Shown: positions 13,470 to 59,446, numbered from the whole stretch's first letter. The stretch: DNA of 63,646 bases, filler included, from Sluysia triapertura (GCA_046118255.1; 5 parts of 5 records of this genome joined end to end with filler, not necessarily neighbours in it), one strand, 5' to 3'. A program made the numbers and translations. The notes: generated by a model not told the origin, from the letters alone.

Positions 13470-13711
13470 TCACCCAATCAGAGTGCTAATTTAGTAATTC
13501 TTATGATTTGTTTGTTTATGCTCTGATTGGGTGATACTCGTTATCAATATGATGAGTGAAGAAACAGACTGATGGCTAACCACCATCAATACTGACAGAT
13601 CAATATTAACGTTAAATTGACTGTCAGGATTGGTGGTGGTAGCAACCAGTGCTATCGTCACTGTTTAATTTTATTTAATTTAATATTATTATTTAGGAAA
13701 CAAAATGGCGG
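13470..13711. promoter_or_regulatory. Double inverted-repeat module, copy A (CCAAT-containing IR, 62-nt hairpin, YY1-like site)
   Basis: Perfect 14-bp IR TCACCCAATCAGAG (13470-83) / CTCTGATTGGGTGA (13521-34). 20-bp IR ACCACCATCAATACTGACAG (13579-98) / CTGTCAGGATTGGTGGTGGT (13621-40). CAAAATGGCGG at 13701-11. It lies about 200 nt upstream of the 13274 start. Confidence 0.7.
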
Positions 13712-13795
13712 ATAATGGACGATATTAATGATTAAAAATAATAATAATAACAATAACGAAATAGTGAAATCATTGTTATTATTATTATAAGATGA

Positions 13796-13895
13796 NNNNN
13801 NNNNNNNNNNNNNNNNNNNNNNNNNNNNNNNNNNNNNNNTTAATTAATTAANNNNNNNNNNNNNNNNNNNNNNNNNNNNNNNNNNNNNNNNNNNN
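13796..13895. other. Assembly gap with artificial linker
   Basis: 44 N + TTAATTAATTAA + 44 N; identical structure at three other gaps. Confidence 0.97.
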
Positions 13896-13904
13896 GTAAT
13901 AGTA

Positions 13905-13972
<68 letters not shown>
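13896..13972. repeat. (AAT)n microsatellite at a contig edge
   Basis: Direct reading of the sequence. Confidence 0.95.
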
Positions 13973-14399
13973 TCGTTAAGTTTAATATTCTTGTGTTTAA
14001 AAATTCAAAATGTTTAAAATTTGTTTTAATTTTTTAATTAATGTGACTATAGAAACAGGAATGTTTACTAATTAAAAACATTTACAAGAATATTTGTCTA
14101 TTTCTTTCCTTTTTATAAATCATGGAACACAAAAGAAATAACAAGAAAAGTTACCTTTGGGTATTTAAGAAACAATGCTAATTAAATAAACGAATAAAAT
14201 ACTTTGGCCAAATGCACACTCTGAGGTCGACCAAAACATAACTTACAACTTTTAATTAAAAAATATAATTCTAAACGTTTTATAGACTTTTTTTATAGTA
14301 TTTTATGTATTAACTTATATGTGGATTAATAAAATATATTTTATATTTCAAATATTTGGAAGTGTTTAATTTTATAAAAATTCTATAATATTCTTAGAT

Positions 14400-16200
14400 A
14401 AAAGAGACCTCGTCATTTAAAATGTATGGAATTAGATCATGGACTGACAATGTTCGGTGTATCTGCTGACAAAATTATAGAATAAAAGCATCTTCATCCA
14501 TGCGTTATAAATTCAAGCTTGAATTATCGAATGATTCACAATAAGCAAAATACATATTCGAATAGTCACATGCAATAGTTGTCGAATAAAATGAATCCCG
14601 TAAAGAAAAATCTCGCTGAAAAATGATTCAAGAAGACTATGAAAACAATGCACAAATGATCGGCTTCCAAACATAGAAACATTTTAAAGAGACAGTCATG
14701 GTCGAAGAAGTATGACAGAGAAAATAAAATGTCATGATGATGTTGTTGGATAGTATAAATCCTATCAATTTACTCGATTTAATATAACGAATAAAAAGAT
14801 CAAATTCCTAATAATTATATTACAGATCCATTATGCATTGCCTATTCAACTTCATAAAAATACAACAAATCCAGCTTTCCTGGTTCTCCATTCCACTTAC
14901 AAAATTATAATACTTTACATACTAAAGTTAAATATTTTCTCAGATGTCTCTAAGAAAATTATAAATTCAATGTAAAAATGAAAAAATAATTTAAAAATGA
15001 AACCAATCGAAGAATTAGTTGAGTGTAGAAAGTGCAGTAGATCACATAGGAACAATTGAAGCTACGATAGAACTGGTTGATCATTTGAATAATAATAATA
15101 ATATACATAAGTATCGCGAACAATATCCAATTGTAAATAAACAAACAATTAAGGAAATTCGAGATAAGTACCATGAGATTACAGTAGCAACTACGTCTCT
15201 GCAAAAGAATATATTAAAAGAGAAGTTCAATAAGCCAGTATAATTCTGGTTCAAAAAAAAGAAAATTGTAAAGAAAATTCTTAATTAAAACAAAATTATG
15301 TTAAACTTACAGTTTTAGTGAGTGCGATTTGTGTAGGATTATTTTTATACAATAAGATCACATTATCAATATAAATCATAAATAATGTTCAGTTTTGTGA
15401 AAAATAACAATTGTTAAAAAAATTAATTCATAATTGTCCCATCATTAAAAATGTTATTAATGTCTGAAAGGCGTTAGTAATTCACAATCCATATGAAAGG
15501 CGTTTATTCTAGATGGATAAATAAAGTAATAGCTAATGATATAGATTCTCGACGATATACATGACACAATGCAGATGATAGTATTTTACGAAAATTGCTC
15601 ATTATAATACTACCTTCTGGACGAACTAGAAACCGTGCAACGTTTACTTAATAATTCTCAAAAGATGAAAAATAATTCCATAATATTAAACTCCACTAGT
15701 TATTATGAAATTAGAATGATCAAATATACATTATTAGATTGTACGTTTCAGATAGCACATATTGAACTTTTAAATAATGTTACAGTACGTTCTGATTCAG
15801 AAATCATGAATCACAAACAAATTAGTGAAATTTTATATTATTTACGTAAATTTAGTAGTACAGTTATGACATGTAAATGTTAATTTTCATTTAACTAAAT
15901 GTAATGCACAAAATTTGTTAACGACTATCATGATGATTCTAAAGACAATTTGTTGTATATTCATTTAGCTTATTGTGCAACTCCTGCTACTTCAAGAGAT
16001 AGTATCATACATGCAACTATTTTAACCATGAAACTTTGTGCTGAACTTAGAATCAGAAACATAATACTTAATTTAGTATATATAATCCAATGTTGTGGTC
16101 CAAAATTACTATCAAAACTGTTTCAATGATTTCCGAACAATTTACCGGTATATTGCCGTACTTGCATATAAAGATTTCATACATTAATTATTGTTAAATA
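14400..16200 (+). mobile_element. Possible heavily decayed Ty3/gypsy pol relic
   Basis: Only faint peptide echoes: GLTMFGVSA (~14440, cf. RT LPFGVSSAP) and SDVS (~14940, cf. RNase H TDAS). Many stops; boundaries approximate. Confidence 0.3.
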
Positions 16201-16295
16201 TTTGTATTTTATAATTCTGTATTTTTAAATTTCTTAATATAGTTGCTTCTCTGTATTTTTAGGGTTGATGATTTCCCAACTTTGATCAAGCTTAA

Positions 16296-16518
16296 CCCTC
16301 TGTGGGCCGAATTTTTTTCTTAAATATAAAAAAATATTTATTTTGACATTTCAGATTGATGGTGCTGCCAACCGTTATCAATATTGTTATTGGCTATTTC
16401 AGAGGCACTAGATAATTAAGACGCGTGCATCATCTTTCTTCTGAAAAAAACTAAAACTATTTGGTAAAATGCGGATATCTTAGCTTGTCGCTTGAAAGTT
16501 ACATGAGCCCATAGATGG
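16296..16518. mobile_element. Non-autonomous piggyBac-type MITE (223 bp)
   Basis: TTAA flanks at 16292-95 and 16519-22. Termini CCCTCTGTGGGC ... GCCCATAGATGG are 10/12 inverted, with the CCC start typical of piggyBac. Confidence 0.75.

Positions 16519-17643: not shown

Positions 17644-17646
<3 letters not shown>

Positions 17647-17713
<67 letters not shown>
17647..17713. repeat. (TTA)n microsatellite
   Basis: Direct reading of the sequence. Confidence 0.95.
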
Positions 17714-17714
<1 letters not shown>

Positions 17715-17781: not shown

Positions 17782-19541
17782 TAGGGTGGGTTGAAAAATA
17801 GAAAATATTGTAATATCATTGCGGAACTTCGTATTTATTTGACAAATGGCCTCTGAAATAAGAAACAAAAGTTTAAATTGCTTTTTTATTACAGGAAGTG
17901 CTCCATTTTTAAATCTGAAAAATTGCATTAAGCAGAATTTTCAGCTTGATGTATTCTATTATTACTTTATTAATTTTAAGATTTTGTATGTATATTTTGC
18001 TTCTAATTTGTATTTCGATTGTAGGTTATATATTTAGAACAATATATTGAATGTTTTGTAACTTAATGGTTGCAAGAAGCGTAACACGGCACTCTGTATT
18101 TGGCAATGCCAGTGAACTTCGTCACAATGTACTGCCAACAAATCTTCAAGTTGCACAGCATTTCTTGCATATGAAAAAAACAAAGACAACAACAGAGCTT
18201 TGTCAGATGCTGCTATCAGTCTGTGCAACAAGGCTTCCATTCCAACTATGCATTACCGATCTGTAATCAAACGTGTGGAAGCAATGATTTCAACAGGTTC
18301 AGAACTGTCTCGTTCTAAATCAAGTTCAACACGTCAGTCTACTTTGGACTCATTGAACTACCACTACGACATCTGTTTACAAGACTGGATGGGCCAACAC
18401 CTGGAGCAACGAGTTTCACAGGTCCCATTGCTCATGAACTTTATCACTACGAATTGAAACATATTGCTAATTTTACAAAGATTACACGTCAACACAATGT
18501 GCCTGTGTTAGATGAGGATATGTTAGTTGATCTGACATGTGACCAGAAATATTTATATGATATTGTAACAGCCATTAGAACTAGCATTGTTTCTGAAAAT
18601 TTATTAGCTAAAAGCCTCGTCCCCTAAATCACTCACGATGGCTTACTTTTGCCAACAGGGTTTGCTGCCTGTATGTGGCTGCAGACAATCATTCTGCTAA
18701 CCTTTGCATCATCACACACTTCAATGTAACTAACTATGCTGCAAACTGGTTCACCATAAAGCTCAATCCCTCGTGCACATATGGTGAAAGACATGTCCAT
18801 TATGCAACTCAACTTCTCAAAGAACTTTCTAGTGAAACTGCTGCTATTTTCAAGGCTTACGTTAGTCGCGGTGCATATTTTGCTCATTCCGAAAATATTC
18901 TTATTACTATGCTGGCTGATTCAGACAAAAGTATTCGTTCAAGAGCACTTGATATTATACTCCAGCGAAGACTCCATGCATCTACAGTTGCAATACGTCT
19001 GTTTAAAGTTCCACCGATTAACTATGATGCAACAAACTACGTTGATCTGATTAACTGGGACGATATCCAGGAGCCACCACTCACAGATGATGATATTGCT
19101 AAATTAAGCAATGAGCCATTCACTTTGAATTACAAGAACCACACTCAAGGAGTGAAACGTTGCATTAAACTGATTAAAGATACCTCAAAAGCTGTTTATG
19201 ATTTTGAGGCCAGAGATAGCTTTATTCACGCACGAGTAAATTCTCGCAATTCAATGTCTCGTTTTGATTCAAAACAAGATTACTGTGATAACTTTTTGCA
19301 GAAACTATTTATTAGAAAAGGACATACCTATATTCTGTGAGTAATTATCATTGCTTGACCGTTTATATTTGCAAACAATATTGATATACGTTAGGCCTGT
19401 CTCATTATTTGATAAGTCTGCTGTGATTGTTAATACCATTAAAGCGAGTATTTTAGGTTCTTTGTGATTTTCTTTCATTTCACATGCAAATTCAAAGTTT
19501 TCCTGAGTTCCGTGACAAAGTTTTATTTTCAACCCACCCTA
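17782..19541 (+). mobile_element. hAT-superfamily (hATm-type) DNA transposon, internally deleted, 1.76 kb
   Basis: Perfect TIRs TAGGGTGGGTTGAAAA (17782-97) / TTTTCAACCCACCCTA (19526-41). Degenerate 8-bp TSD ATACATAT / ATACACAA. Encloses transposase fragments and is more GC-rich than its flanks. Confidence 0.9.
18051..19340 (+). pseudogene. Frameshifted hATm-type transposase
   Basis: Motifs across frames: KASIPT, DQKYLYDIVTAI, PLNHSRWLTFANR (hAT RW motif), AYFAHSENILITMLAD, RLFKVPPINYDA, WDDIQEPPLT, HTQGVKRCIKL, RDSFI. Confidence 0.85.
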
Positions 19542-22556: not shown

Positions 22557-22949
22557 GTATGTGATTCTAATACTTTATTTTTATATTTGATTTATTTAGA
22601 GAAGAAAATATTAGGTCGGAACTAAGTAAACTTATTTTAAATGTATTTATAAGTTCCACTTTTGCATTTTTATAGTTTTCAATTAGTTATTTATGCTATT
22701 ATGTTTTGTTAATTCTTTTATTCCGGATATTTTATGCAGTATTAATAGTGTTTGTCATGTGATCGTCTTCAATTACGATTACGGTTTTAACAGTCCTGAA
22801 TAGTTACATAAATATTTATTTTATATGGACAAGTTAAGTGCATATCATAAATTAATATATCATAATTTATGATATGCAATATCATAAATAAAATTAATTG
22901 ATTTACCTAATGCCAATTAAATTTATCAAACCATAAGTGTAGTTAATTA

Positions 22950-24500: not shown

Positions 24501-27139
24501 GTAGTTTTAATTTCAACAATGTGGTTAACTTTTATAATAATAATTTTAATAAAAATATAAAATAATAATAAAAATATTACAGTAATAAAATAGTATCAAT
24601 AATAAAATGCCAATATTAACATAGGACAAAAATAATAACGAATATTAGCAACAATAATAGTCGCATATTAGTAGCAGCACTGAAAATAGCAATTGTAACT
24701 TTATTTTAAGTTAAATCGTAAATGCAATATAAAGGTCTGAAGATGTATAATGGAAGTTATTGATGATAAAGATGTGAAAATTTAATACTTAGTGATTGCA
24801 TACAAGTTATTAGTGTTGTGTGAATGTTCGAAAGTATATTATTATGTGTGAAATGATGAATAAATGCAATCAATTTACATTATTTTCATTGACTAATCAA
24901 CGTTTGATAACATAAAACAACATCAACAATAATAATAACAATAGTGAAATTACTAATAAAAATATTACATTGGTAGGATCCTATTTTGTTCAGTCATTGG
25001 TTAATGCTGGATAAGGATTCTTTTAAAATTTGATCGACAAATTCTTACTAAATGATTATTTATGAATTAGTCGGAAATAAAGTAACACGTTGAAAATATA
25101 GGCGGTCATGAATCATGTTAGTCGTAAGTCACTACTAACTGTAATTATTTTTTGTTGTACATTATATCGGTAAAAGGATTACAATTTTAAATATAATTTA
25201 ATGTGTACCATAATGTGTAGAGTAAAATTTGAACTTATTACTTTATATAATGCAACTTTAAAATTAATTTATGCTTGTCAATAATTAATGATATTTATTT
25301 GCTATAAAATTGCTCTTAAATTTTATCTAAAATCTAAACTTTCACAATATTATATAACTTTTAGGATGTGTATGTCAATAATCTGTAACTTTTTTCGTCT
25401 TTCTGATAGAATTTTCTAAATACTTATAAAACTTTAAATAATATCGGAAGTCTTTTAATTATCAATATAATTGTTGTGAATTTAACTCGTCTCTGGTGTT
25501 ATAAATGGAAGTGCGAATAACAATGTATTATACTCAAGAAATGCGCAGCCAATTAATTAAAACTTTTCTAAAGTCGTGATGAAACAAATATAATTGACAA
25601 AAGTATAGATTTTAGTATTTGGTTTTATGTTCAGTTTAAATTTCAAATTAAATTTTTTATTTATATATTGTATTCTAAATTTTGCACATAAACAATAAGA
25701 TTCAATAATAATCTAATTCAAATATGTAAGTTCTGAATCAATCAAAACTAGTTATAACCCAGAGTGATCAATAGTTTCTTTCATTTCGCAAACCGAATTA
25801 CAATTACAATTAATCGGAATAATTTTCTTCAAACTATAAATTATACCTACTTGATATTTTCTTACTTGTAATTAATTTGAAAAATTGATGTAAGATTTTT
25901 TGTTAATTTCAGAAATTATTATTTTTGACCGATAATTTTTTTAATTATGTTATAATAAATTTTATGTACTCAATTTCTCTCTAATCTTGGTTTCATTATA
26001 TGGTAAATTTTGTTATATAATTATGTACAACACAATCACAGTCTACATATTTGCGTAAATGTATGGCCAATTTCGTCAATATAATAGTCAATTTTATTCT
26101 ATATTATAATTTTGGCCATAGAATCCCCTCACATCTCCATTGTTAAATTTATATTATTTATGTATACTAATACTTGTTCTTCATTTCTATTATATCGGTA
26201 TTATGTAGTTTGTATTATTTATTTTGTTTCTGTTCAGTTTACAGCATTTCTTCTCGCTAATTAAGTATGTTAATTCCTTCTGCTTTCGTTTTATTTTATT
26301 TTCTAAGTTTAATTTTATTTTTTCAGATTTTAAAGTTTTTCTTTAGGGCATTAGAATTCATGGCACAAAAATTATTTTAAATTATAATACTCTTGAGGTG
26401 AGTCCAACCTTACAATTAAACACAACAATAAAAAACTTAACAATAAACCACAAACAACAGCCGAAAGTTGTTAACATGCAAGCTCAATTAATAATCATTT
26501 ACTTTCACATTTTATATATTCTAACACTTAAATATTTACTTCTCCGTTTACACACATAAGCAATCCAAAATAAAATAATCAATATTGTTCTCACTTGTAT
26601 AATGTTATTATTGTCGTTATTGCTACCTTGTTTTCATCTATTATTAACGTTAGTAGTTTTATTATTACTATGATTATAATTTACATAACTTACTTCTTTT
26701 TGACAATGTTTTTTCTGCATATTTTAAGCTTTTATTTGCTTTCCTTCTTCATAAATGCTCATAAGTTCTTCCTTCCTCATCAGTGGGAATATGATAAACT
26801 CAAGATACATTTTAAATCTATTGATTAAACTATAACGAGAAAATATGTTATTATCGAAATCCCAGCTACGTTTACAAAATTTAAAAAAATATGCTTTAAA
26901 GTCATATTGTACATTTTGGATTTTTTAAAAATTAAATCTTAAATGCTTCTGTGGTGTTGCAATGATTTATCAGAAGTTAATCAGGCCTATTTTTACAATA
27001 CCAAAAGCCAATTAAAAAAATTCGCTTCTCATATTACTGTTGTGTCTTTTAATATTTTTAATCTTCCCAAATTATTAAATCAAAAATCAATAATTAAATA
27101 AACTCAAAACCTCAGTATATTTGATATAATATCAACGCT

Positions 27140-27239: not shown

Positions 27240-27628
27240 AACCATTAATAAATTTTAGTAATTTATTCTAACATTCTTCGTTTCAAGTACAACTCAAATC
27301 ATTTCTTTTATCTTTAAAAATAAATATAATAAAGCTTTAGAGAATTCATTATATCAATATGAATCAAAAACGATAACTGATACGTACTATACCTCGTTAC
27401 CGTTGCTCCTTCACAGTATGTCATCTGTTTTTGTTTCTCTTTTTATCTTTTCTTATTTTTTTACTTATTGTTATGTAAGATCGCAAGAAACTAAAAGAAA
27501 AGATCGTGTAATTCCAAGATAAAGATTTATGCAAGTTTAAATTTAATTAATAATAATAGCAATATTATTATTGCTACTATTATTATTAATCATTCAATAA
27601 TTACGTAAAAATAAATTATTTTGTCGTC

Positions 27629-27820
27629 ACCATCATCAATATCGACACTTTATTCATTAGTTTTATTCGTATGTCACTATTGATGGTGGTTCAGTACCAC
27701 AAATCAATTAACAGCCAATGAAATCTGAATAATTTATAGACGATTTTGTCATACAGTGTATGAATAGTAAGTGAAGCATAGTAGATTCATGCATGATATG
27801 TAATAATTGTTTGTGATTGG
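27629..27820. promoter_or_regulatory. Hairpin element copy C with downstream CCAAT/ATTGG boxes
   Basis: ACCATCATCAATATCGACAC (27629-48) / ATGTCACTATTGATGGTGGT (27671-90) with a 22-nt spacer. CAGCCAATG at ~27712 and GATTGG at 27815-20. It precedes the WDR7-like ATG at 27891. Confidence 0.6.
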
Positions 27821-27890
27821 TTTTTCTATTTTTAATTGTACACAATTCATTTTTATTATTACTGATGTTTTAATACACTTAACATTGATT

Positions 27891-28193
27891 ATGACAGGTA
27901 TAACGAAATCATTAATAGTACCAATGGCTATATCGCCGAAGCATCCTCCGAAACTTAATATAACGAAAATTTTACACATTCCATCTTCCAAATTTGTTGT
28001 CACTGCTTCCGATGTTGGACATATGGTTGTATGGAAATATTGTGATACGTTTTCAAAAGTTGTACCAGAGTATTATTTTATTGGTCATCGAGGAAACATA
28101 TCTCATTTGATAATTGTTTCTGATAAAAAAATTAGTCATATGCAATACGTAGTGACATTTTCGCATGATCTTTTTCAGATTAACTACATTTAA
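27891..28193 (+). pseudogene. WDR7: Truncated 5' end of WD40 protein WDR7/WDR72 (rabconnectin-3 beta-like)
   Basis: MTGITKSLIVPMAISPKHPP...VVTASDVGHMVVW...YFIGHRGNISHL...QYVVT parallels the WDR7 N-terminus (SLVLPIVLWG..P...IVTG..DGQICLW...LFGHTASITCL...QYIVS). Similarity stops at about 28170 with a nearby stop codon. Confidence 0.7.
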
Positions 28194-28223
28194 CCAGAAC
28201 CTTCTATAAAGACAGATTTCTCA

Positions 28224-28940
28224 ATGCAAGAACCGACAACAGTTCAGAATACATTTCGTCTCATAAGTACTATATTACAAAATTCAAATCGTCTTCATGA
28301 TAATAATTTGTACTTCGGTTATCCATATTTATTAGTTACATTATACGAATCGATTCAATCTCTTAATTTAGCAAATTATTATGGATATAATACCCATTCC
28401 TCATTTATCGTTTCTCTAACGACGTTGCAAGTGGAAAAAGTCAAACAAGAAATAAGTTGCATTAACAAAGAACGATCATCATATAATGATCTTGTCTTCC
28501 TACAATCAATCGTAGATAGTTATACGAATTTATCATTAGAAATGGTTTATATGTCACACTTTCGAGTTACGTATTTTGTCAAAGTTGATAGTGATGTCCT
28601 TCTCAATGATCAACGATGTATCAATATAAGTAATGACAATTTACTCAAGACGCAAAATATTCAACTTATAATTAGTAACTTAAAAGTTAACGTGGTAGTG
28701 ACTAGAAATGTTGAATCAAAACGATACTTTCCCTATAATGCTTTTGATGAATCAGTATTCGAGAATAATGCATTATTCTATTTAAGATGTTTCATGCATG
28801 AATTTAACCAGAGTGAAGTATTTAACTTGCATAATGATTATGACAAAAGAAACCGGAATCAATATGAAATCAAACAGTATCCTTATTTTAGTAAATTGCT
28901 ACTGAGCAGCTTAATAAAGAATGAAGTGATCTGGAGTTAG
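28224..28940 (+). pseudogene. Beta-1,3-galactosyltransferase (GT31/Galactosyl_T) fragment
   Basis: ERSSYNDLVFLQSIVDSYTNLSL, YFVKVDSDVLLN (DxD motif), TRNVESKRYFP. No N-terminal TM anchor and no C-terminal GT31 motifs are visible. Confidence 0.75.
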
Positions 28941-37100: not shown

Positions 37101-38103
37101 TTTTTATGCACAAAGTTTATTGTTTGCGCCAAAATCACTTTACTAAGTCTTTTATTCTGATTGTACATGTAAAGATGTATTTTATGTTAAAGGTGTATTG
37201 TTATGTTTTGCTTTATTAAAAGTTTATAAATATTATATTAGATTAAAAATAAAAAATATAAATTAAAAAATAAAATATAAAATAAATTAAAAAATAAAAA
37301 ATATAAATTTTGAAAATATAAATATAAAGCTTGTTTACATTAAATAATTTATTTTTAGATTTAGGAAATTTATTTTAATTATAAAGAAAAATTATTTTTA
37401 GATTTTAAAGAAAATTATTTTATAAAGAAAAATATTTTAAAGAAAAACTTTTTAGACGAAAGTAAGTATAAATAAGACAGCATAAGACAATTTTAAACAA
37501 GAAGAAAAATTTTTTGTTGTAATCAAGATCCAGATTCTGTTTTAAAATCTTAATGATGTCCATACAAATTATCAAGTAATTTTTTATTTTTGAGGGAATA
37601 TTAAAATCTTAGGTAAATTCATTGTATTTTATTCGTACCAACACCTTAAATAGGGTTTCATTAGTTAAATTCATTAAATTCGTTTCATTATTTACTTTGA
37701 GTCTAAAATTCTAGTCGATTTAGAACGTCGTATAACTAAATATGCCGTTAAGTAAAATTCTTATTTTGCAACAACACCTTAATAAAAGGGTTGTGTAATA
37801 TAAATAAAATATCATTTTTTTGATACAACATCTCAGTAAGGGAGTTGTGTAACTTATTTTTCTCAACAGTTAAGTCAATAGATATAGAGGATGATGAGGA
37901 ATACAGGAACTTATATGCAGCAATTAATAACGGAAAAATGCAGAAGATATCAATGACGGATATATACAACGAGTTTTAGGAATTGAAATTTAATTTGAAG
38001 AAAATGTTTCTACGCCATAAGTTCGATATTTACTGTATTTATTTGAAACAATTATTCATCGGAAAACCACATCGCGTAAATAAAATAACACGATGTTTGC
38101 AAT

Positions 38104-38593
38104 ATGCATATAGACACTAAAAGAAATACAAGAAAAGTGCAAAATTTCGTACAAAATATAACAAATAAAGTTATAAACAATTGTACAACCAAGTTCAAAA
38201 CTAGCAGACTATTATCTAATGATACTATGAATAATGTTTTTACTTTAGTTCATAAGTTAATTATTATCTCGGTAATTCTTATAATAGTATATGCACTATG
38301 GATTATTTTACACATAGTTGACTTCAGTAAAAAACTACGAACAAACAATATTAATAAAAATTTGATACCTCTAACGCTAATGATGATAATCACTAGAGTC
38401 CAATGTAATACTTATAATGTACAAGTTTATAAATCCGAATACCTTGAATTCCAGAACTACGACACCGAAGTTAGAGTTAAAGTATTGCAAAACGATATTC
38501 AAGTCAGATTTTCATATTTAAAACCGGCACGACTTAATTTTACTTCATGGGCAGTACAACAATATTATATTAACGATAGAATAAATCCGATTG
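38104..38593 (+). CDS. Hypothetical membrane protein, runs into a gap
   Basis: At least 163 codons open. Hydrophobic segment LIIISVILIIVYALWIILHIV, a basic linker, then a second hydrophobic stretch LIPLTLMMII ending in VQC. Confidence 0.4.
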
Positions 38594-39312: not shown

Positions 39313-40467
39313 TTAAACAATTAATTCACAATTTGAAATGATTTTATGAAATACGTTGACCGAGATAAAAAATAACTTAACTACAAAATGTTTATTATAA
39401 AACTGACGAGTTATATTTATAATGTGTGTACGTTTGCTTCTGCATAAATCCCTTAGAGTACAATCTGATCCGCTATCTAAAAACAATTTAGAAAAATGAT
39501 CAATGTTATTTAAAATTATATTAAATATTACTTTATTAGATTTTACGTTCAGATCATTGATTGAGACTTGTCGAGCTACGGAGTTTATCACTCATAGTAT
39601 GTACATATTTATATCTGTTGCCATACTTTAAACAAACCTCTGATTCGTTTGGAGAAAATGACAAAAGGATGAGAAAAGATATCAACTTTGTAATTTTTTT
39701 TGTGAACAATTAATTTACGTTTATTGTCGATAACATCGAATGGTTGGATCACTTTACAATCTTTATTCTCTATATTTACAAAAACTTGATCAGAGTACTT
39801 GTCGTTGTTATGATCTAGAATCGAACTATTAATCACTTTATTATGTTTAAATAAATGATAAAAATAAATATTTTTATAAAACTTTAAATAATAATTAAAT
39901 GATAGTCTAACTAAAGTTTTATCATGATCTTGTTTATGTGGTAAATAACTCACTGATAGTTTGGTTGTCTTTACAATCAGTTTGATAGTGTACGTAGCGG
40001 CTCGTAGGTATCATCATCTCGTTCATATGTTAAGTAACACGTCGATAGTTGAATTACATTTTTATGATCGGTTTGATGATGCACATAAGTAGTTTGATCG
40101 ACTCATTATCATCGTTTTGATTATGCACTAAATAACTCAAAAATTGTTTAATTTTATCTCTACGATTGTGATAATCGAATACTAAACGGCTTAACAATAG
40201 TTTGTCTTTACGATTAACTTGACCAAGTACTAAATAGTTCAAAAATAATTTATTTACATCATCATGATTATCTTTATGAAGTACTAAATAATTCAGAGAT
40301 AATTTATTTACATCATTATGATTGTCTTTATGGAGTACTAAATAATTGAGAGACAATTTATTTACGTCATTACGATTATCTTTGTCGATTACTAAATAAT
40401 TCGAATATAATTTATTTACATCATTATGATTATCTTTATGGTCATACAGCATTTTGAAATTAGACAA
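39313..40467 (-). pseudogene. Frameshifted orphan gene with N-terminal 18-aa repeats; probable distant paralogue of the 11-13 kb gene
   Basis: Three consecutive minus-strand ORFs (40054..40467, 39609..39953, 39313..39591) that change frame. Colinear echoes with the 542-aa ORF: RGLFKVW/RGIFSGFTNIPW, NIILNN/HILINN, GSDCTLRDL/GSKEQEMRHL, SVNVFHK/SYNVHK. Confidence 0.55.
40120..40442 (-). repeat. Coding minisatellite, 54-nt unit (KDNHNDVNKLSLNYLVLH), 4 good units plus decayed ones
   Basis: Repeated + strand unit gtactaaataattcagagataatttatttacatcattatgattgtctttatgga. Confidence 0.9.
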
Positions 40468-40559
40468 GTTTTAATAAACTTTATTTTTAAAAATTAAATT
40501 GTGTATTTATGAAAAATTTTTGTGCTTTAAAATCTTTTTTAAATTATACTCATGATTGG

Positions 40560-40788
40560 TTATCCAACCAGAGATTTATAATGACATTTAAAATTTATTT
40601 TCACTCTGGTTGGGTGATCTAATAAAATGCACTACAAACAAAAGAGAGATAAACCACCATTCATGCTGACATTCATTTGTACTTAGTGATTAACTATGTC
40701 AGTATGAATGGTGGTAATTTGCTTATTTATGTGTATTTTTGATTAATATTTAAAAATAATTAGAAATGATTTAAAAACCATAATGGCG
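40560..40788. promoter_or_regulatory. Double inverted-repeat module, copy B, between divergent genes
   Basis: TTATCCAACCAGAG (40560-73) / CTCTGGTTGGGTGA (40604-17). ACCACCATTCATGCTGACAT (40653-72) / ATGTCAGTATGAATGGTGGT (40696-715). CATAATGGCG (40779-88). Same order and similar spacing as copy A. Confidence 0.7.
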
Positions 40789-40936
40789 AAATAATATTTA
40801 TACTTCAAAAATTTACAATATTTAAAAATATGACGAATTATTTGGTTTAAGTGCTTTTGAGTACTTATTTCATAATAAGTATCGTTATGCAAATAAATAT
40901 TTAAAAATATTTTATAAAATTTTAAAATCAATAACA

Positions 40937-42379
40937 ATGAATACTGACAGCAAAACTGCAAATGAGGACTTAAATTTAAAAATCGAACAAATAAATAATT
41001 GTGCAAGGTTATTTAATGCTGTATTTTGCCGAACAGCGGATGATTATGATGATTTAAAATATGTTCGCAAAAAATTGGCAGAAATTAGAAATGAACTGTA
41101 TAAACATATGCCATTTTCAGAACAACTATGTGATGATACGTCGACTGTAAATCGTCAAAATATTGATACAAATTGGCAACGTGTAATGTCAAAATATAGT
41201 CCAAGTAAAGCATGTAAATTAAGTCCTATAAAACCGACATTAGGTTGTTTGGATACTGTTTTATTTAGTGATGCTTATTTAGAAGGATTTATGTGGATTT
41301 TAAATATGAGTGAGTTGTTTTATTATGATAATTCAATTTTATTGGTCAGTCAAGTTGATTATACGATGGAAAATGATTACTTAGATAAACTTAATGAAGT
41401 AATCCGTTTCAATCGTACGTTAGATACGATAAAGGATCGAATGGAGAATTGGATTAATTTTAAAAAATTAGGTGAAGGAACTTTCGGTGCCGTATATAAA
41501 TTTATTGATAAAAATACCCAACAAATGTTTGCCATGAAATATTTGAAAAGTATGGATGAAAATTCGATTATAACAAGACATACAAAAGAACTAATTAATT
41601 ATATTGGTGAACGAAATAATTTAATATTGTCACATAAAAGTCCCTTTGTAGTACAATTTATTGATTCATTTACATTGGATGATCCAAGTGGTTTATTTTT
41701 AATACTCGAATATTGTATAGGTGATATTGAAAAAGTATATGAATATTTTACTGTTTGGTATGATGAAATTGATGCTAATGAAAGTGAAATGATTCGACGA
41801 TTAAAAAGACGAGGATATTGTGTTACTATTGATGGAAAATGTGATGTACGACATAAAGTCTTCAATTTTCTATCACTCTTTTTAGAATTTGATTTGGAAT
41901 TGTTAATCATTATTTATGCTTATGAAATATTTTGTATGTTGGACTTTTTAGCGAAGAGAAATATTGTGCATGCCGATATCAAATTAGCTAATATATTGAT
42001 TAGTGACAAAGGTCATTTAAAAATGGGTGATTTTGGTTTAGTTGAAAATATGAGATTTATAACTAGTAGAGTTAATGTGAATTTAGTAGTAAATGATGAA
42101 TTATTGGCAAATGAAGCATGTATTTATAAAAATTTTGTACAAGGTACTTTCATATATTATGATCCAGAATTGTTGATTAGACGAGCCGATAAACATTTGT
42201 TGCAGCGCTTAGGTAATGAATCATTTTTTTCTGAAGCATACTCCGTTGCTTGTATGGATTTTATGAGTGATACATGGGCAGCAGCTTTTACCATTTTTGA
42301 TATTATGTATACAGGAATATTTTATTTCGATATTATCACAAATGACTCTTCTGTTACTGAGGTAGGAATTAGTTTTTAA
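40937..42379 (+). CDS. Divergent Ser/Thr protein kinase, AGC/Greatwall-MAST-like, non-RD (copy 1)
   Basis: LGEGTFGAVY, FAMKYL, ERNNLILSHKSPFVVQF...LFLILEY, HADIKLANILISDKGHLKMGDFGL, GTFIYYDPE, SDTWA. Probable splice donor GTAGGA at 42362. Confidence 0.9.
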   Translation: MNTDSKTANEDLNLKIEQINNCARLFNAVFCRTADDYDDLKYVRKKLAEIRNELYKHMPFSEQLCDDTSTVNRQNIDTNWQRVMSKYSPSKACKLSPIKPTLGCLDTVLFSDAYLEGFMWILNMSELFYYDNSILLVSQVDYTMENDYLDKLNEVIRFNRTLDTIKDRMENWINFKKLGEGTFGAVYKFIDKNTQQMFAMKYLKSMDENSIITRHTKELINYIGERNNLILSHKSPFVVQFIDSFTLDDPSGLFLILEYCIGDIEKVYEYFTVWYDEIDANESEMIRRLKRRGYCVTIDGKCDVRHKVFNFLSLFLEFDLELLIIIYAYEIFCMLDFLAKRNIVHADIKLANILISDKGHLKMGDFGLVENMRFITSRVNVNLVVNDELLANEACIYKNFVQGTFIYYDPELLIRRADKHLLQRLGNESFFSEAYSVACMDFMSDTWAAAFTIFDIMYTGIFYFDIITNDSSVTEVGISF

Positions 42380-45420: not shown

Positions 45421-45422
<2 letters not shown>

Positions 45423-48119: not shown

Positions 48120-49502
48120 ATGTACAAAGATGATAATGAAGCATGTCAAGAAGATAATTATCAAGTACAAGCAGAAAACGAATTATTGAATATTTTGCGT
48201 AAAGAGGTGAAAACAAAACGAAATAGAATATGCAGAAATGTAGAAGTATGTAAAACAAAAATGAATTATAAAACGAAAAGACCGCGAAATATAGATAGCA
48301 ATTGGAAGAGATTATTATTAAAATATAGTCCTAGCAGTCAATGTAAATTAAGTCCTATTAAGCCAACTTTGGGTTGTTTAAGTCCTATTGATGAAATCAG
48401 TGATGAATTTACAAATGGATTTATATGGATATTAAATATGAGTGAAATGTTTTATTACGATAATACCATTTTATTGATCAGTCAAGTTGAACACAAACAA
48501 CAAACTAAGTTATATTATTATGAAATTAATAAATTTTTACGATTAAATCGTACTTTTGATGTAATAAAATATCGCCATGAATATTGGATTGATTTTAAAA
48601 AATTAGGTGAAGGAACATTTGGTTCTGTTTACAGTTTTCGAGATAGAGAAACGGGAGAAAAATATGCGATGAAATATCTACGAGGGTTATCAAAAAATGT
48701 AAGAATATCTAATCATACTAAAGAATTGGTTACGTATTTAAATGAACGTAACTATTTAATATTGTCACATAAAAGTCCATTAATAGTACAATTTATTGAT
48801 TCATTTTCATTGGACAATCCTAGTGGTTTATTTTTAATACTTGAATATTGTGTGTCGGATTTAGTAAAGTTTGTTGACGTTGTTTTTGATAAATTTAATG
48901 ACTTTAGTGATAAAAATGCAGATAAAATAAATGAATGTAAAAATGTAACAATTAATGATGCATTTAATATTCATTTGTCTATACATTTACATTTTGATAT
49001 GGAAAAATTAATCATTATATATGCTTTTGAATTGTTTTCGATGTTGGATTTTTTAGCCAAAAGAAATATCGTGCATTCTGATATTAAATTGGACAATATT
49101 TTAATAAGTGATAAATATCATTTAAAAATGGGCGATTTTGGTTTAGTAGATAATATGAGATTTATAACTAGTAAAAATTATATGAGTTTAATTTCACATG
49201 ATGTATTGGTCGCCACAGAAAATGATTATTATATCGAAGAAATTGGAGGCACACGGTTGTACTATGATCCGGAAATTTTACTTGCAATAATTGATGAAGA
49301 TAAGAAAAAGAAAATGCATGTATTTTTTGATGCTTATAATAAAGAAAAGATTGAATTTAGAGATTTTATGAGTGACACCTGGGCTGTGGCTTTAACTGTT
49401 TCAATGTTGGTTTATTCTGGAGACTTTTATTTTGTTAGATATTTTTCAGAACCTGAAATTATTCAAGTAAGACAGATTTCAATAGTTATCTATTCAAAAT
49501 AA
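48120..49502 (+). CDS. Divergent Ser/Thr protein kinase, AGC/Greatwall-MAST-like, non-RD (copy 2)
   Basis: Clear paralogue of 40937..42379: KYSPSSQCKLSPIKPTLGCL, LGEGTFGSVY, YAMKYL, HSDIKLDN, DFGL, YYDPE, SDTWA. Donor GTAAGA at 49467, the position homologous to that in copy 1. Confidence 0.9.
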   Translation: MYKDDNEACQEDNYQVQAENELLNILRKEVKTKRNRICRNVEVCKTKMNYKTKRPRNIDSNWKRLLLKYSPSSQCKLSPIKPTLGCLSPIDEISDEFTNGFIWILNMSEMFYYDNTILLISQVEHKQQTKLYYYEINKFLRLNRTFDVIKYRHEYWIDFKKLGEGTFGSVYSFRDRETGEKYAMKYLRGLSKNVRISNHTKELVTYLNERNYLILSHKSPLIVQFIDSFSLDNPSGLFLILEYCVSDLVKFVDVVFDKFNDFSDKNADKINECKNVTINDAFNIHLSIHLHFDMEKLIIIYAFELFSMLDFLAKRNIVHSDIKLDNILISDKYHLKMGDFGLVDNMRFITSKNYMSLISHDVLVATENDYYIEEIGGTRLYYDPEILLAIIDEDKKKKMHVFFDAYNKEKIEFRDFMSDTWAVALTVSMLVYSGDFYFVRYFSEPEIIQVRQISIVIYSK

Positions 49503-54048: not shown

Positions 54049-54621
54049 TATTAAAGTTTTATTAGAAATAAAACACGATTATTTTATTAGAAATCAGACA
54101 TCACTTTGCAAATCATTTCCTTTAATAAATCAGCAATTTCTTTCTGAAAATCAACGTCTGTCATCGTAACTTATCGTAACTGTCATGAAAGTTAGTTTAT
54201 AATATTTCGAGTAAGATGTCACAGGTGCTTTTGTTTAAACAATGTGATTATTTGAGCTTGAACAATTTAACATGATTTAATCGATTTTGCGCCGTCGCTA
54301 ATATATCTACAAGTAGCAAGACTCGTACTCAATTAGCCCAGATAGAATATATTAATATTATAAATACTTTATTAATAATATATTTTTAGCACTAAAATAA
54401 TTTCACTATCAAAACGAAATTATTTCACGTCAATTTTAATATTGCACTGTTTTAATCTCGTAACTGTTAAAACAAATTTCATTTTTTTCTTGTCAATTAA
54501 AATTCTTGATTTTAGATAATAAGTCCACTAATATATTACTTCTATAGATGTAAAAAGTGTTGTTTTTGGAATATGATATATTAAAGTAAATTATTAAAAA
54601 TATTAACTTAAGTAAATACTT

Positions 54622-54624
<3 letters not shown>

Positions 54625-54687
<63 letters not shown>
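54625..54687. repeat. (AAT)12 directly abutting (ATT)9: a spacerless palindromic microsatellite
   Basis: Centre of symmetry at 54660/54661. Confidence 0.92.
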
Positions 54688-54690
<3 letters not shown>

Positions 54691-55177
54691 TTACATTGCG
54701 CTCATATCTACTGCAAAATAAGTACTCAAAAGCACTTTAAATAAATCATTCACTATAATATTTCTGAAACAGAAAGAACGTTGTCTTTTTCTTAAATATT
54801 TTATAATCTTCCAGCAATTTGACATTCTCTGGTAGCTGGTTGAATATTTTTGAAACATAAAGGGCATTTAACATATCAGCTAAATTATTATCACGTAAGT
54901 CTCAATGAAATATTCGTCTTTCTAAGAGATATTCAGGACTTCCGCACTATAAACATGATTTTGAATTCTACTCTTGCTTTTATTTTTAATTCATTAGTAT
55001 CTCAAATTTATTTCCTCCGCGAAATGTTACAACACATTTTAGTAATACATTTTTGCCACTTTGTACCTATTTATATATGATTTTAATTTTATACATTAAA
55101 TATTTATTATATCACGTTTATTTTATCACAACAACAAGTCATTTGATAACTTTTCATCGATGTTGTATCATTTTGTT

Positions 55178-55307
55178 NNNNNNNNNNNNNNNNNNNNNNN
55201 NNNNNNNNNNNNNNNNNNNNNNNNNNNNNNNNNNNNNNNNNNNNNNNNNNNNNNNNNNNNNNNNNNNNNNNNNNNNNNNNNNNNNNNNNNNNNNNNNNNN
55301 NNNNNNN
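55178..55307. other. Assembly gap (130 N, no linker)
   Basis: Run of N. Confidence 0.97.
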
Positions 55308-56406: not shown

Positions 56407-56660
56407 TACGGATATAACTAAATTTAAAATTTTCTTTTTATTACTGAATAAAAATATATAAAACTTGACTAAGACAATTTTATTGTATATGAAAATGTAT
56501 TTAATTTTGAAAACTAAATTTTACATTATTATGTTAAAATCCATTGCTGCACCATGTTGCATTACATTGATCCCCGATCTATGCTTATTATCTAAAATAT
56601 AAAATGAATTAAGAGACTTCATTTGATTTCGACTTTCTATATTAAAATTCCTATTGTTTT

Positions 56661-56781
56661 ATGCTAGACCTTAAAGGCCAGCTCAACGTTTAAACAAACT
56701 AAAATATTTGACTTTTGCACGCTAGACCATAATCGGCTGGCTCAACCTCTCACAACCAGACCATAAATGGCTAATTTAACC
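56661..56781. repeat. Three degenerate direct repeats (cTAGACCaTAA..GGC..gCTCAAC)
   Basis: Copies at about 56663, 56721 and 56756. Confidence 0.7.
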
Positions 56782-57934
56782 AATAATTTATCAAGGTATT
56801 CTTACTGAGTATTTGTTGGTAGGTGGTTAAATAGTTTTAATTTAAGAACAATCGTTGTAAGTAAGCTTCGGACACTTGCTCGTTTTCTGACAAATCCTAA
56901 TAGACCGCCTTCGATCAGATATAAGTCGCGTCTATTAGACGAACTCATCTTCGGTATTCATTCATTTTGTAAGTACAGGTTTAGCAGTAACCATATATTA
57001 TGAATGCTATAAAATTTAGTGAAATTTATGAAACTGACTTCGATAATGAACATGTATTTATGAATTTTCCTTTACAAATCTATAATACAAAAGATGATTA
57101 TTTTGAAATATTTTTATTGAGTCAATTTAAATTCGAACTGTATGTTGAAATCAATATATTGTGACAGTTATGGATCAAGAATTGTGTTATTAAATAGGTT
57201 AAAATTTAATAAATGTGACTGTTATTCGTCACAATGTAAATATTTTATATGATTTATATGCATCACAACACTGTCAAAGTATGCTTAATTTACTCAATTT
57301 AGTTTTTATTTATAAATGAGATGAAATTCGATGAAACTCGATGACTTAGTCGTCCAAAAGTGTAGCACGAATTTTATGAATTATAAATTTTTACTCGCAA
57401 ATAAATAACTTGTTTGTGTTAAATATTTGATATCCATAATTTAACTTTATGCAGCAATAAGAATAAGAATTTCTCAAGTTTTCTTATTAAAATTATTAAG
57501 TTGTTGATGATCATGCTATTTCATAAGCACCCTAAGTATCGTCAATATTCTTTAATCATTTATTGTAATGTTAATGACTCAAAACTTAATAACACTACTT
57601 TAAAACTATCTTTAATTTAAAAATAAGTGAATATTTTGGGCTTAGTTCGGAAGTTATTATTGTACCAAATTTTAAATTATAAACAAACTGATTAAAATCA
57701 CTAGAAATTAAATTAAAAAATTTTCTTTTAATCTTGTAAGATGAATTATCTTTAACTACTTTACATATTTCCTGGTTAAATTTTTTACTTAAAAGAATGA
57801 TGAAAATAAAACATTTAAATTTTTATAACACACACGTAAAATTTTGTCTAATTCACAAATTGTTGACTTTAAACAAACAAGAATTCTATCGTTTGTATTT
57901 TGGTATGCCGCAGATTCACTCGATCGTAGATTCC

Positions 57935-59182
57935 TTAAGAAAAAAGATCAGATGTTCGTTCATCAAATAAAATATAAATTACTCCACGTCTTATGTGGCA
58001 AGCATAACAGGAATCCTTAAGATTGTTGCGGAATTGGACTGGGCATTTGTTGATTTGGTGAATACTTTTAAAAGAATTTAATAGATTGTTTAAACGTTCT
58101 ATATGTTGGTTTGTACATTCGTTTTTATCATTGTTGGAGTTTAGTTCGCCGATATTATGAGAATAGCGGCACGAATTTCCATACTTGATACACATATTGA
58201 AATCATCTAGTTGAGATGGGCGTTGTGCTAAGCATTTGTATAAGTGAACATTATTACTTGACTTGATGGTAATAGGTTTAATACAACAGCCTCTATTGAA
58301 GGTGGATACGGTAGTTGTATTATAATGATGTTTGACTTCGTTACATCGACTCCAATTCTTTTGTGATTGTAAGTATCGTATGGATAAATTTTATTGAAGC
58401 ATAATGGATGAAAAATTAAAATGAGTTCTTTTATAAACATGAATAAATATTAATTGAATTATGTCAGCTTTATTAAGATCATGGTGAGAACGAACCAATT
58501 CATTGAAATGACTAAACATTATATTTGACGTGATTTGATTACGGGTATGATCATTCAAATCGAGTTCGAAGTTAACATTTTCGTAATTTTTATTGAATAC
58601 ACCCGTACTAGACATTTAAAATATGTAACTGTTGCGGTTCCATAATGAAAGAGAAGTCATCGTACTGGTAAACGATTGATTCTTTAATGTTTTTAGTCTA
58701 TGTAACACATCTAGTAGCCCGATGAGCATCTACTAACTGCCAAGTAGGATTGTATTTATCATCTTCAAATTCATCCCCTGAACGATAGCCTACTCCTTTA
58801 GAATAACCGGTTCATATTTCACGATATAACCCTGCATAATTACACATTACAGAAAATGCAGAGGCATATGAACTTTAAAAGTCTTAATAGATATATAACA
58901 TCAAATGACAGTATTTTCATATCACGTGCTGTCATCCATCGAAATATTACTCTAGTTTTTTCAATTTCTTCTAACTTATATCGATATACAAGATCCCACA
59001 TTAAATCACGAAATGACGGATATTTATTTGATTTACTCGAATAGCGTGATAATCAACTTTTTCGAATACTGATGGATCGTCATAAAGTGGTGTTTCAAAT
59101 GACTTGATAGTTCCGATGGTGGAGCTTTAGAAGTGTCTACTGGTTTCGGTAATACGAAATTTTTTGGTGCTAACACAGACAT
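57935..59182 (-). pseudogene. Disrupted gene containing a CCCH-type zinc-finger remnant
   Basis: ATG at 59182 (MSVLAPKNFVLPKP...), then consecutive broken ORFs 58391..58615, 58228..58440 and 57935..58195. RPSQLDDFNMCIKYGNSCRYSHNIGEL has a CCCH-like C..C-x3-H tail; the first Cys position reads CGC. Confidence 0.5.
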
Positions 59183-59287
59183 TTGAAATTATCAATTTTC
59201 GTTATAATTGCACTTTTTTCAGAGTAATTTATGTATTTTGTATTTTAATGAGCTATTTTTAGTTGATATTTGCTTAATTTCTGTTTG

Positions 59288-59446
59288 ACAGCCAATGAGA
59301 ACATTTATTTAATCTGCTCTGCGAACAATACATAATAGCACAACAAACCAGAGCGTTAAGTAACTGCCATCACTCGACAGTTCATAATGTATGTTGAAGT
59401 GCCTTAAATTAAGCTGTCGACTGATGACAGATTGTAATTAAAATGG
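59288..59446. promoter_or_regulatory. Hairpin element copy D with CCAAT box
   Basis: CTGCCATCACTCGACAG (59364-80) / CTGTCGACTGATGACAG (59414-30), 15/17 inverted. ACAGCCAATGA at ~59288 is the same 11-mer as at 27711. It lies upstream of the 59182 ATG. Confidence 0.55.

What the first reader, a model, noticed from the sequence alone, without database searches (positions are those of the whole stretch)
13579..59430. Recurring ~62-nt hairpin family upstream of four genes, with arm-to-arm covariation
Seen: four related inverted repeats. A is 13579-13640 (20-bp arms, 22-nt spacer), B is 40653-40715 (20-bp arms, 23-nt spacer), C is 27629-27690 (20-bp arms, 22-nt spacer) and D is 59364-59430 (17-bp arms, 33-nt spacer). 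Each is roughly 180-310 nt from a gene start, with CCAAT-like boxes between hairpin and gene. Spacers are unrelated, but in A, B and D the arms change together: A has CAATACTGACAG/CTGTCAGGATTG, B has TCATGCTGACAT/ATGTCAGTATGA, D has TCGACAG/CTGTCGA. Several residual mismatches are G:U-compatible on the + strand. Inference: pairing itself is maintained, as expected for a pre-miRNA-sized RNA stem-loop, a DNA cruciform or replication/transposition signal, or a symmetric promoter homogenised by conversion. An alternative is a mirrored pair of TALE-homeodomain sites, since TGACA(G) is the MEIS/PREP core.
Basis: partly seen in the sequence, partly recalled or inferred. Interest (0 to 1): 0.82.

Follow-up and report, generated by a model that had tools for sequence, protein, structure and literature searches.

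The report
Mirror-image promoter modules in a flatworm
In this flatworm DNA, the same 20-letter word appears as a mirror-image pair about 200 letters in front of several unrelated genes, always beside a classic promoter signal, so it most likely marks an undescribed gene switch rather than a small RNA.

Summary
The four inverted repeats are real and far beyond chance (4 at ≥25 bits against 0.017 per shuffle). The DNA is flatworm, probably a planarian. A, B and C are one family with a 20-bp arm; D is a probable diverged member.

At C and D a lone CCAAT box replaces that second hairpin. All four elements lie 182-305 nt upstream of start codons of unrelated, mostly broken or lineage-specific genes; B lies between divergent genes.

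Arm covariation is weaker than claimed: one column in A, two adjacent columns in B, none in C, seven in D. G:U compatibility shows no + strand bias (3 of 9 mismatches). There is no Rfam family and no target-site duplication.

Best reading (0.5): a double-stranded DNA promoter module of NF-Y boxes plus an inverted pair of sites for an unknown, possibly TALE-containing factor, with arms kept alike by template switching. Rivals: mobile-element relic, RNA hairpin, selected cruciform. No genome-wide or expression data could be examined.

The parts
13579..13640 (.). Main inverted repeat, copy A (20-bp arms, 22-nt spacer); the RNA fold extends a few pairs outward and into the spacer
40653..40715 (.). 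Main inverted repeat, copy B (20-bp arms, 23-nt spacer)
27629..27690 (.). Main inverted repeat, copy C (20-bp arms, 16/20, 22-nt spacer)
59364..59430 (.). Inverted repeat D (17-bp arms, 33-nt spacer); probable diverged member, both arms 2 nt shorter than the A-C arm
13470..13534 (.). Second inverted repeat at locus A: two facing CCAATCAGAG boxes, 14/14 arms, 37-nt spacer (not in the finding)
40558..40619 (.). Second inverted repeat at locus B: CCAACCAGAG in both arms, perfect 10-bp core 40564-40613, 30-nt spacer (not in the finding)
40553..40561 (-). Intact CCAAT box abutting the second repeat at B
27713..27721 (+). Lone CCAAT box (AGCCAATGA) between C and its gene; a second box lies at 27814-27822 on the minus strand
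59290..59298 (+). Lone CCAAT box (AGCCAATGA) between D and its gene
59346..59353 (+). AACCAGAG, a partial half-site of the second repeat, 10 nt left of D
13704..13710 (+). AATGGCG word (YY1-like, label recalled), 64 nt right of A; one of 2 in the window
40782..40788 (+). AATGGCG word, 67 nt right of B; the other of 2 in the window
11379..13274 (-). Gene next to A: 18-aa repeats, an in-frame stop at 13008-13010, a weak match to part of splicing factor SF3A3; no relatives found for its last 423 aa
40054..40452 (-). Short ORF left of B with 54-nt repeats, divergent from the kinase
40937..42379 (+). Intronless, highly diverged protein kinase right of B
27891..28940 (+). Broken gene next to C: WD40 fragment like WDR72 clusters, a stop, then a galactosyltransferase-like stretch
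58629..59182 (-). Broken copy of the first about 200 codons of a kyphoscoliosis-peptidase (KY)-like gene next to D, beginning at the natural N-terminus

Best explanation
The element is a promoter module that works as double-stranded DNA in a flatworm (probably triclad) genome. Shown: an inverted pair of a 20-bp word, consensus ACCACCATCAATACTGACA(G/T), with a free 22-23-nt spacer sits about 200-300 nt upstream of start codons. CCAAT boxes lie on the gene side: a second inverted pair at A and B, single boxes at C and D. At A and B an AATGGCG word lies 64-67 nt away on the other side. Inferred: NF-Y binds the CCAAT boxes. A second factor binds the two half-sites symmetrically; a TALE homeodomain complex is the leading guess for TGACA, but 20 bp needs a partner or a multi-finger protein. 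Together they would hold open a 160-170-bp region that can fire in both directions. Inferred: the arms stay alike within a copy because replication template switching copies one arm onto the other, not because a hairpin is the working form. Inferred with less confidence: the module spread by DNA-level duplication or from an old non-autonomous transposon, which would explain why it stands before gene fragments and young genes.
For: Position: 4 of 4 elements lie 182-305 nt upstream of an ATG of a gene with protein-level support, strong for B, C and D and weak for A; the naive chance is 1.6e-6 to 2e-5 for 8-15 candidate starts. In C and D the gene appears to begin at its natural N-terminus (for D; plus recall for C). 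6 of the window's 18 CCAAT[CG]A sites lie within 130 nt of the elements against 0.3 expected (p=3e-7), at 4 of 4 loci; 2 of 2 AATGGCG words do too (patterns chosen after seeing the loci). The second hairpin is replaced by a lone CCAAT box at C and D, so the motif rather than the stem is what recurs. The CCAAT box lies between hairpin and gene, which by general knowledge puts the hairpin upstream of the start site. Arm sequence is conserved across unrelated loci while spacers are not. No strand bias in G:U pairs across A-D. In S. mediterranea, CCAAT-box and Hth (TALE) motifs are the two top de novo motifs in 294 non-promoter ATAC peaks near neoblast genes: 13.3 v 2.0% and 12.2 v 1.75% (PMC10558129 Fig. 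S8A, values assigned by their order in the PDF text). TALE and NF-Y co-bind in zebrafish (PMC6023610). Template switching homogenises promoter inverted repeats in yeast (PMC13100816).
Against: No start site, chromatin or binding data were examined. The published planarian Initiator word has no match with 2 or fewer mismatches near A, C or D. B's second repeat has CCAAC, not CCAAT, in both arms, which should weaken NF-Y binding. Exact TGACAG is in only 2 of 8 aligned arms and the DECA word is absent. The same planarian paper found no enriched motif but the Initiator at neoblast and constitutive promoters, and its CCAAT/Hth enrichment is in non-promoter peaks. The kinase paralogue at 48120 and two other ORFs lack the module. 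Four of the five neighbouring genes are broken or very short, so present function is uncertain. The stems fold well (z -3.2 to -7.5). In the orientation with CCAAT on the 5' side, 7 of 9 transition mismatches are G:U and the first 8 nt of the 5' arm are invariant in A, B and C (read), which suits an RNA.
Confidence: 0.5

Rival explanations
1. The arms are termini or sub-termini of an old non-autonomous transposon or gene-capturing element (MITE, Pack-type, Helentron or Penelope-like). The module lies before gene fragments because the element carried or attracted them, and it need not serve the host.
For: A dispersed family with inverted arms, in 4 of 6 gap-delimited segments. Neighbours are intronless, chimeric or broken. 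A and B share order and spacing of three parts. MITE-derived promoter motif pairs exist in C. elegans, and Penelope pLTRs with palindromes move host genes in rotifers.
Against: No target-site duplication at any of 8 boundaries printed (inspected by eye). No similarity between loci outside the arms. 62 nt is very small for such an element. All 4 copies lie upstream of genes and none elsewhere. No far second end was found in the same segments: all 6 half-sites above 20 bits are in close pairs.
Confidence: 0.2
2. The hairpins work as RNA: a duplicated two-hairpin cluster processed like pre-miRNAs (5' arm mature), or promoter-proximal structured RNA.
For: Length 58-67 nt and stable folds (z -3.2 to -7.5). 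A's stem extends beyond 30 bp. B's stems fold better on + (-38.0 v -32.4). In the CCAAT-first orientation the first 8 nt of the 5' arm are invariant in A, B and C, and 7 of 9 transitions are G:U (from; 3 of the 7 are in B's second repeat, whose ends were set from the RNA fold). Diverged loops with kept arms are typical of miRNA paralogues (general knowledge).
Against: 0 Rfam matches at gathering score in the window. The best sub-threshold matches are 23.4 bits against a cut-off of 70, and 20.9 against 72.7. The second hairpin has only 14-18 bp, its arms are CCAAT boxes, and it is replaced by a single box at C and D. A and D fold about equally on both strands. D's 5' end differs. A position between a CCAAT box and a divergent gene is not where miRNA genes usually lie.
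Confidence: 0.17
3. The inverted symmetry itself is selected at DNA level: the repeats extrude as hairpins or cruciforms under negative supercoiling between divergent promoters and exclude nucleosomes or recruit a structure-binding protein.
For: Two or three different arm sequences form repeats of the same overall size (58-67 nt) at the same kind of place. D's arms agree 15/17 while sharing 7 departures from the family, and B's second repeat changed CCAAT to CCAAC in both arms. B lies between divergent genes.
Against: Structure alone would not keep the same 20-bp sequence at unrelated loci. 22-37-nt loops disfavour extrusion (general knowledge). C's arms share no changes. Template switching explains shared changes without selection.
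Confidence: 0.1
4. Chance inverted repeats or assembly artefacts.
For: The window is AT-rich and gapped; A lies 155 nt and C 390 nt from a gap.
Against: Shuffle and mirror controls; the same arm word in separate segments; B and D lie about 2 kb and 4 kb from gaps.
Confidence: 0.02

Closest known systems
C. elegans CERP2/CELE2 MITE-derived germline promoters (m1m2 pairs bound by HIM-17; bioRxiv 10.1101/2022.01.21.477252, passages read)
   Same: Long motifs unlike a single known factor site, in a fixed paired arrangement at promoters; plausible origin from a small inverted-repeat element
   Different: m1m2 are two different motifs 12-16 bp apart with thousands of non-promoter copies and a known MITE consensus; here one 20-bp word faces itself across 22-33 nt, no parent element or binding protein is known, and CCAAT boxes accompany it
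Vertebrate TALE (Pbx:Prep DECA) plus NF-Y composite sites (PMC6023610, PMC11802806, passages read)
   Same: TGACA(G) core close to CCAAT boxes
   Different: No TGATTGACAG word; the TGAT-like half lies on the opposite strand; CCAAT boxes are about 25-70 nt from the hairpin rather than about 10-20 bp from the site; the site is doubled as a long inverted repeat
Template-switch-homogenised promoter inverted repeats in yeast (PMC13100816, abstract and introduction read)
   Same: Arms of promoter repeats change together, in clustered substitutions, without selection on pairing
   Different: There each repeat is locus-specific; here one arm sequence recurs at unrelated loci
Animal pre-miRNA paralogue clusters
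   Same: About 60-nt hairpins, conserved arms, free loops, two hairpins 35-44 nt apart
   Different: No family match, near-perfect stems, second hairpin too short and made of CCAAT boxes, position just upstream of protein genes
Su(H)-paired sites in HES/E(spl) promoters (recalled, not checked)
   Same: Head-to-head sites with a constrained, sequence-free spacer
   Different: Half-sites there are about 8 bp and spacers about 15-17 bp

Membership tests
pre-miRNA | About 60-nt hairpin folding better than shuffles | tested here: met
   z -3.2 to -7.5 for 12 of 12 strand-folds of the six repeats; expected for any selected inverted repeat
pre-miRNA | Match to a known miRNA family | tested here: not met
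   0 hits at gathering score; best sub-threshold 23.4 of 70 bits; arm words absent from 4 of 5 supplement files of PMC3840308, in which miR-752 was not found either, so that search is weak
pre-miRNA | One arm and its seed more conserved than the other | tested here: inconclusive
   In the A+, B+, C- orientation the 5' arms depart from consensus at 5 places and the 3' arms at 9; nt 1-8 invariant; D differs (from; n=3)
pre-miRNA | About 22-nt reads with Drosha/Dicer offsets | not testable with these tools
   No small-RNA data
MITE | Terminal inverted repeats, short, non-coding | tested here: met
MITE | Target-site duplication | tested here: not met
   None at 8 of 8 boundary sets printed, by eye; old copies can lose them
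MITE | Homologous interior among copies | tested here: not met
   1 of 7 spacer comparisons p<0.05 uncorrected; no blastn similarity outside arms
MITE | High copy number with many copies away from genes; autonomous partner | not testable with these tools
   No genome of this animal or of any eukaryote is searchable; in the window 0 of 4 copies lie away from gene starts
TALE DECA/NF-Y composite | TGATTGACAG word | tested here: not met
   Arms against the motif; D's outer end TGATGACAG is one base short
TALE HEXA site | TGACAG hexamer | tested here: inconclusive
   Exact in 2 of 8 aligned arms, TGACA in 5 of 8, CGACA in 3 of 8
TALE DECA/NF-Y composite | CCAAT box nearby | tested here: met
   4 of 4 loci, p=3e-7; spacing longer than the about 10-20 bp reported
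Promoter element | Upstream of a mapped start site, in open chromatin, bound by a factor | not testable with these tools
   Only distance to ATG measured; Initiator word not found near A, C, D
Hammerhead-bearing Penelope pLTR or other Rfam RNA | Ribozyme or family match | tested here: not met

The most novel reading that the evidence does not exclude
This planarian lineage marks a large share of its promoters with a portable, bidirectional module of two tandem inverted repeats of about 60 bp, in which symmetry is itself functional (a long-spaced dimer or a supercoiling-driven cruciform). The module moves with gene fragments and gives retro- or chimeric genes an instant promoter, making it an engine of new-gene birth and a ready compact promoter for planarian transgenesis.
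Probability: 0.15. Interest if true: 0.85.

Novelty: new variant of a known kind. Interest (0 to 1): 0.55.

Why it matters
Planarian promoter grammar is barely known: the chromatin paper read here found no motif but an Initiator at neoblast and constitutive promoters. A 20-bp word that recurs as a fixed inverted pair beside CCAAT boxes is easy to find genome-wide, to pull proteins down with, and to test in a reporter. At 4 copies in 64 kb it could be common, although this window was picked for holding them. If it is transposon-derived it would be a second animal case like the CERP2 promoters of C. elegans, and its place before gene fragments suggests a role in how new genes get expressed. I found no description of it in 8 literature searches of a library that lacks most subscription journals and repeat databases.

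Tried and rejected
Rfam at gathering score on the whole window: 0 hits; at E-value level on the 4 loci only weak generic hairpin matches. ARAGORN: 0 genes. A covariance model from the four copies found no fifth copy; the next locus scores 12.3 bits, E 0.7. Exact scan of the GTDB genome set for the paired pattern: 0 matches. Phage collection: one 44-nt match at E 0.08, taken as chance. So no prokaryotic source was found. Hammerhead idea (CTGATGA in D): no Rfam support. LTR or Ginger-type junction idea (arms end inward in TGACA/TGTCA): no homology beyond the arms. A candidate pair at 58245-58306 (18.6 bits) is within the shuffle range (mean best 15.0, max 24.8) and was dropped. Helical phasing: inner TGACA distances are 29, 30, 29 and 40, but the outer block and the second repeat differ by 7, so it is not supported (read). 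The 18-aa repeat proteins beside A and B are unrelated (E=10). The protein beside A had no usable Atlas hit and 0 hits among representatives for its last 423 aa. Pfam on 96 of 116 selected short ORFs (20 inside already known ORFs were left out) gave nothing at cut-off. The first pair count used a structure shifted by one column and was redone. A recalled likeness to planarian miR-752 could not be checked: PMC3854530 has no readable supplement and the term was absent from the files searched. The motif file of PMC11398382 was read only in part 1 of 106, so a matching planarian motif there cannot be excluded. The viral and metagenome contig collections stayed unchecked.


Full report
Source. The window is 26% GC with AAT microsatellites. 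The ORF at 93-7568 is the C-terminal 2,500 aa of SMG1. Its kinase region is 57% identical to Schmidtea mediterranea SMG1 and at most 42% to the other 119 listed hits. The gene beside D has its best named hits in Paragonimus. I infer a flatworm, probably a triclad other than S. mediterranea. Four 100-nt gaps carry a TTAATTAATTAA linker and there is one 130-N gap. The six segments may therefore be unrelated contigs (inference), and what lies right of A beyond 13795 is unknown. A, B, C and D lie in 4 different segments of 6.

Observation. All four repeats are at the stated coordinates, with 18/20, 19/20, 16/20 and 15/17 complementary arms. With microsatellites masked, 4 inverted repeats reach 25 bits against 0.017 per shuffle and 8 reach 20 bits against 0.45 (60 local dinucleotide shuffles). 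Six of those 8 belong to the loci discussed here; the other two are an AT-rich repeat at 22839 and one in the kinase gene. The 3 mirror repeats at 20 bits or more are all in one tandem array. A, B and C find each other when left out of the model (43-50 bits). D's arms are at background level singly (33 of 100 shuffles give a single site as good as its left arm). A covariance model found no fifth copy. All 6 half-sites above 20 bits are in pairs. Five weak singles at 14-15.4 bits besides D's left arm, against 0.87 expected, hint at some solo sites; three of them overlap ORFs.

Covariation. Against the A-C consensus, both arms share 1 change in A, 2 adjacent changes in B, none in C and 7 in D. 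The true pairing of arms is the best of 15 matchings for A-C and of 105 with D. On the alignment, 3 of 20 pairs change on both sides, a count that 53 of 500 shuffles reach; the covariation score is reached by 7 of 500 (D's right arm is misaligned there). So arms are somewhat more alike within a copy than between copies, mainly through B and D. Of 9 mismatches in A-D, 3 are G:U on +, 3 on - and 3 neither, and any transition is G:U on one strand. Shared, clustered changes are also what polymerase template switching leaves in promoter repeats (PMC13100816, abstract and introduction). They do not show that pairing is selected.

A second inverted repeat lies 44 nt left of A (13470-13534, 14/14, two facing CCAATCAGAG) and 33-35 nt left of B (40558-40619, CCAACCAGAG in both arms). 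The word AATGGCG occurs twice in the window, 64 nt right of A and 67 nt right of B; in both it is followed by an early stop, so it is not a gene start. A and B thus share a three-part layout spanning 171 and 158 bp from the first to the second repeat, with unrelated linkers. C and D have a single AGCCAATGA box on the gene side instead. Six of 18 CCAAT[CG]A sites lie within 130 nt of the four elements (0.3 expected; pattern chosen after inspection).

Neighbours. A: ATG at 13274 (minus), 305 nt from A and 196 nt from the second repeat; 18-aa repeats, an in-frame stop, a weak SF3A3 match (E 6e-4), and 0 relatives for the last 423 aa. B: ATG at 40452 (minus, 201 nt) and an intronless kinase at 40937 (plus, 222 nt) whose best relatives are 30% identical or less. 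C: ATG at 27891 (201 nt), a WD40 fragment like WDR72 clusters (0.98, with a recognition value just under the tool's threshold), a stop, then a galactosyltransferase-like stretch. D: ATG at 59182 (182 nt), a frameshifted copy of residues 1-202 of a KY-like protein. The kinase paralogue at 48120 (71.5% nucleotide identity) and the ORFs at 38104 and 56406 have no module. The consistent distance from natural N-termini suggests either native promoters copied with the 5' ends of genes or a portable promoter; the window cannot tell which.

Mechanism. I favour a DNA promoter module (0.5). Shown: sequence, symmetry, position and motif association. Inferred: NF-Y on the CCAAT boxes, an unknown factor on the paired 20-bp sites, bidirectional firing, and homogenisation by template switching. 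The strongest argument is that the CCAAT hairpin of A and B is replaced by a lone CCAAT box at C and D, so the motif recurs without the stem. Outside support: CCAAT-box and Hth motifs head the list in 294 non-promoter ATAC peaks near S. mediterranea neoblast genes (PMC10558129, supplement 1 part 3; values assigned by order), and TALE and NF-Y co-bind in zebrafish (PMC6023610, passages; review PMC11802806, passages). Against: that planarian paper found no such motif at neoblast or constitutive promoters (passages). Its Initiator word has no close match near A, C or D. DECA is absent, B's second repeat reads CCAAC, and four of five neighbours are broken or very short.

Rivals. A transposon relic (0.2) fits the dispersed family and odd genes but lacks target-site duplications, interior homology and copies away from genes; it may still be the origin of the module, as with CERP2 in C. 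elegans (bioRxiv 10.1101/2022.01.21.477252, passages). An RNA hairpin (0.17) fits size, stability, an invariant first 8 nt on the 5' arm and 7 of 9 G:U transitions in one orientation, but it has no Rfam match and does not explain the CCAAT context. A selected cruciform (0.1) fits the equal size of different repeats but not the conserved sequence. Chance is excluded for A-C.

Literature. Eight searches showed no description of the element; I saw only their listings. Term searches in the main texts of PMC11410931, PMC10558129, PMC11398382, PMC12660999 and PMC9522251 found no 'palindrom' and no 'inverted' ('inverted repeat' for PMC11410931). PMC3846280 was read in passages. For PMC3840308 I searched 4 of 5 supplement files; for PMC3854530 I saw only the listing. 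The motif file of PMC11398382 (1 of 106 parts read), repeat databases and subscription journals may hold the word. The labels NF-Y flank, YY1-like, Su(H)-paired site and the WDR7 N-terminal likeness are recalled, not tested.

Verdict. A real, apparently undescribed family of paired promoter-proximal sites with a larger anatomy than reported; a new variant of a known kind. Interest 0.55, limited by n=4 and the lack of genome-wide or expression data.

Noticed in passing
window 13796, 27140, 38594, 52369: 100-nt gaps with a TTAATTAATTAA linker in the middle; the window may join unrelated contigs, so adjacency across gaps is uncertain.
   Followed up: partly
window 11379-13274, 27891-28940, 57935-59182: Three chimeric or broken genes made of host-gene fragments (SF3A3-like; WD40 plus galactosyltransferase-like; KY-like followed by a weak CCCH finger match), all next to the elements.
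   Followed up: partly
window 40937-42379 and 48120-49502: Two intronless paralogous kinases (71.5% nucleotide identity) with no close relative among 5.8 billion proteins; only the first has the module upstream.
   Followed up: partly
window 12680-13121 and 40225-40440: Both minus-strand genes beside A and B begin with 54-nt (18-aa) tandem repeats, yet the proteins do not align; a third 54-nt repeat lies at 37749-37852.
   Followed up: partly
window 41362-41417: 21-bp imperfect inverted repeat (22 bits) inside the kinase coding sequence, unrelated to the family.
   Followed up: no
window 13738-13788, 27546-27590, 54612-54694: Inverted (AAT)n/(ATT)n microsatellite pairs; two of the three sit next to A and C.
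   Followed up: no
window about 13310-13320 and 59195-59205, minus strand: The word AACGAAAATT lies about 20-45 nt upstream of the ATG in the genes beside both A and D; a possible core-promoter or 5' UTR motif.
   Followed up: no
window 40835-40870 and 54716-54751: 36-nt inverted match (89%) between the kinase leader and a distant segment.
   Followed up: no
window 26062-26120 and 24969-25000: A 9-bp inverted repeat around a CCAAT word with a 41-nt spacer, and two tandem minus-strand CCAAT words 27 nt apart; possible further promoters without the main repeat.
   Followed up: partly
window 93-7568: SMG1 residues matching 979-3492 of the S. mediterranea protein are encoded in one uninterrupted 7.5-kb stretch.
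   Followed up: partly
window 18050-19340 and 52166-52366/62703-62904: Frameshifted ORFs that look like a decayed transposase (recalled likeness, no Pfam hit), and a 200-nt interspersed repeat at 81% identity.
   Followed up: no
window 22839-22878: AT-rich 40-nt near-perfect palindrome (22.5 bits).
   Followed up: no
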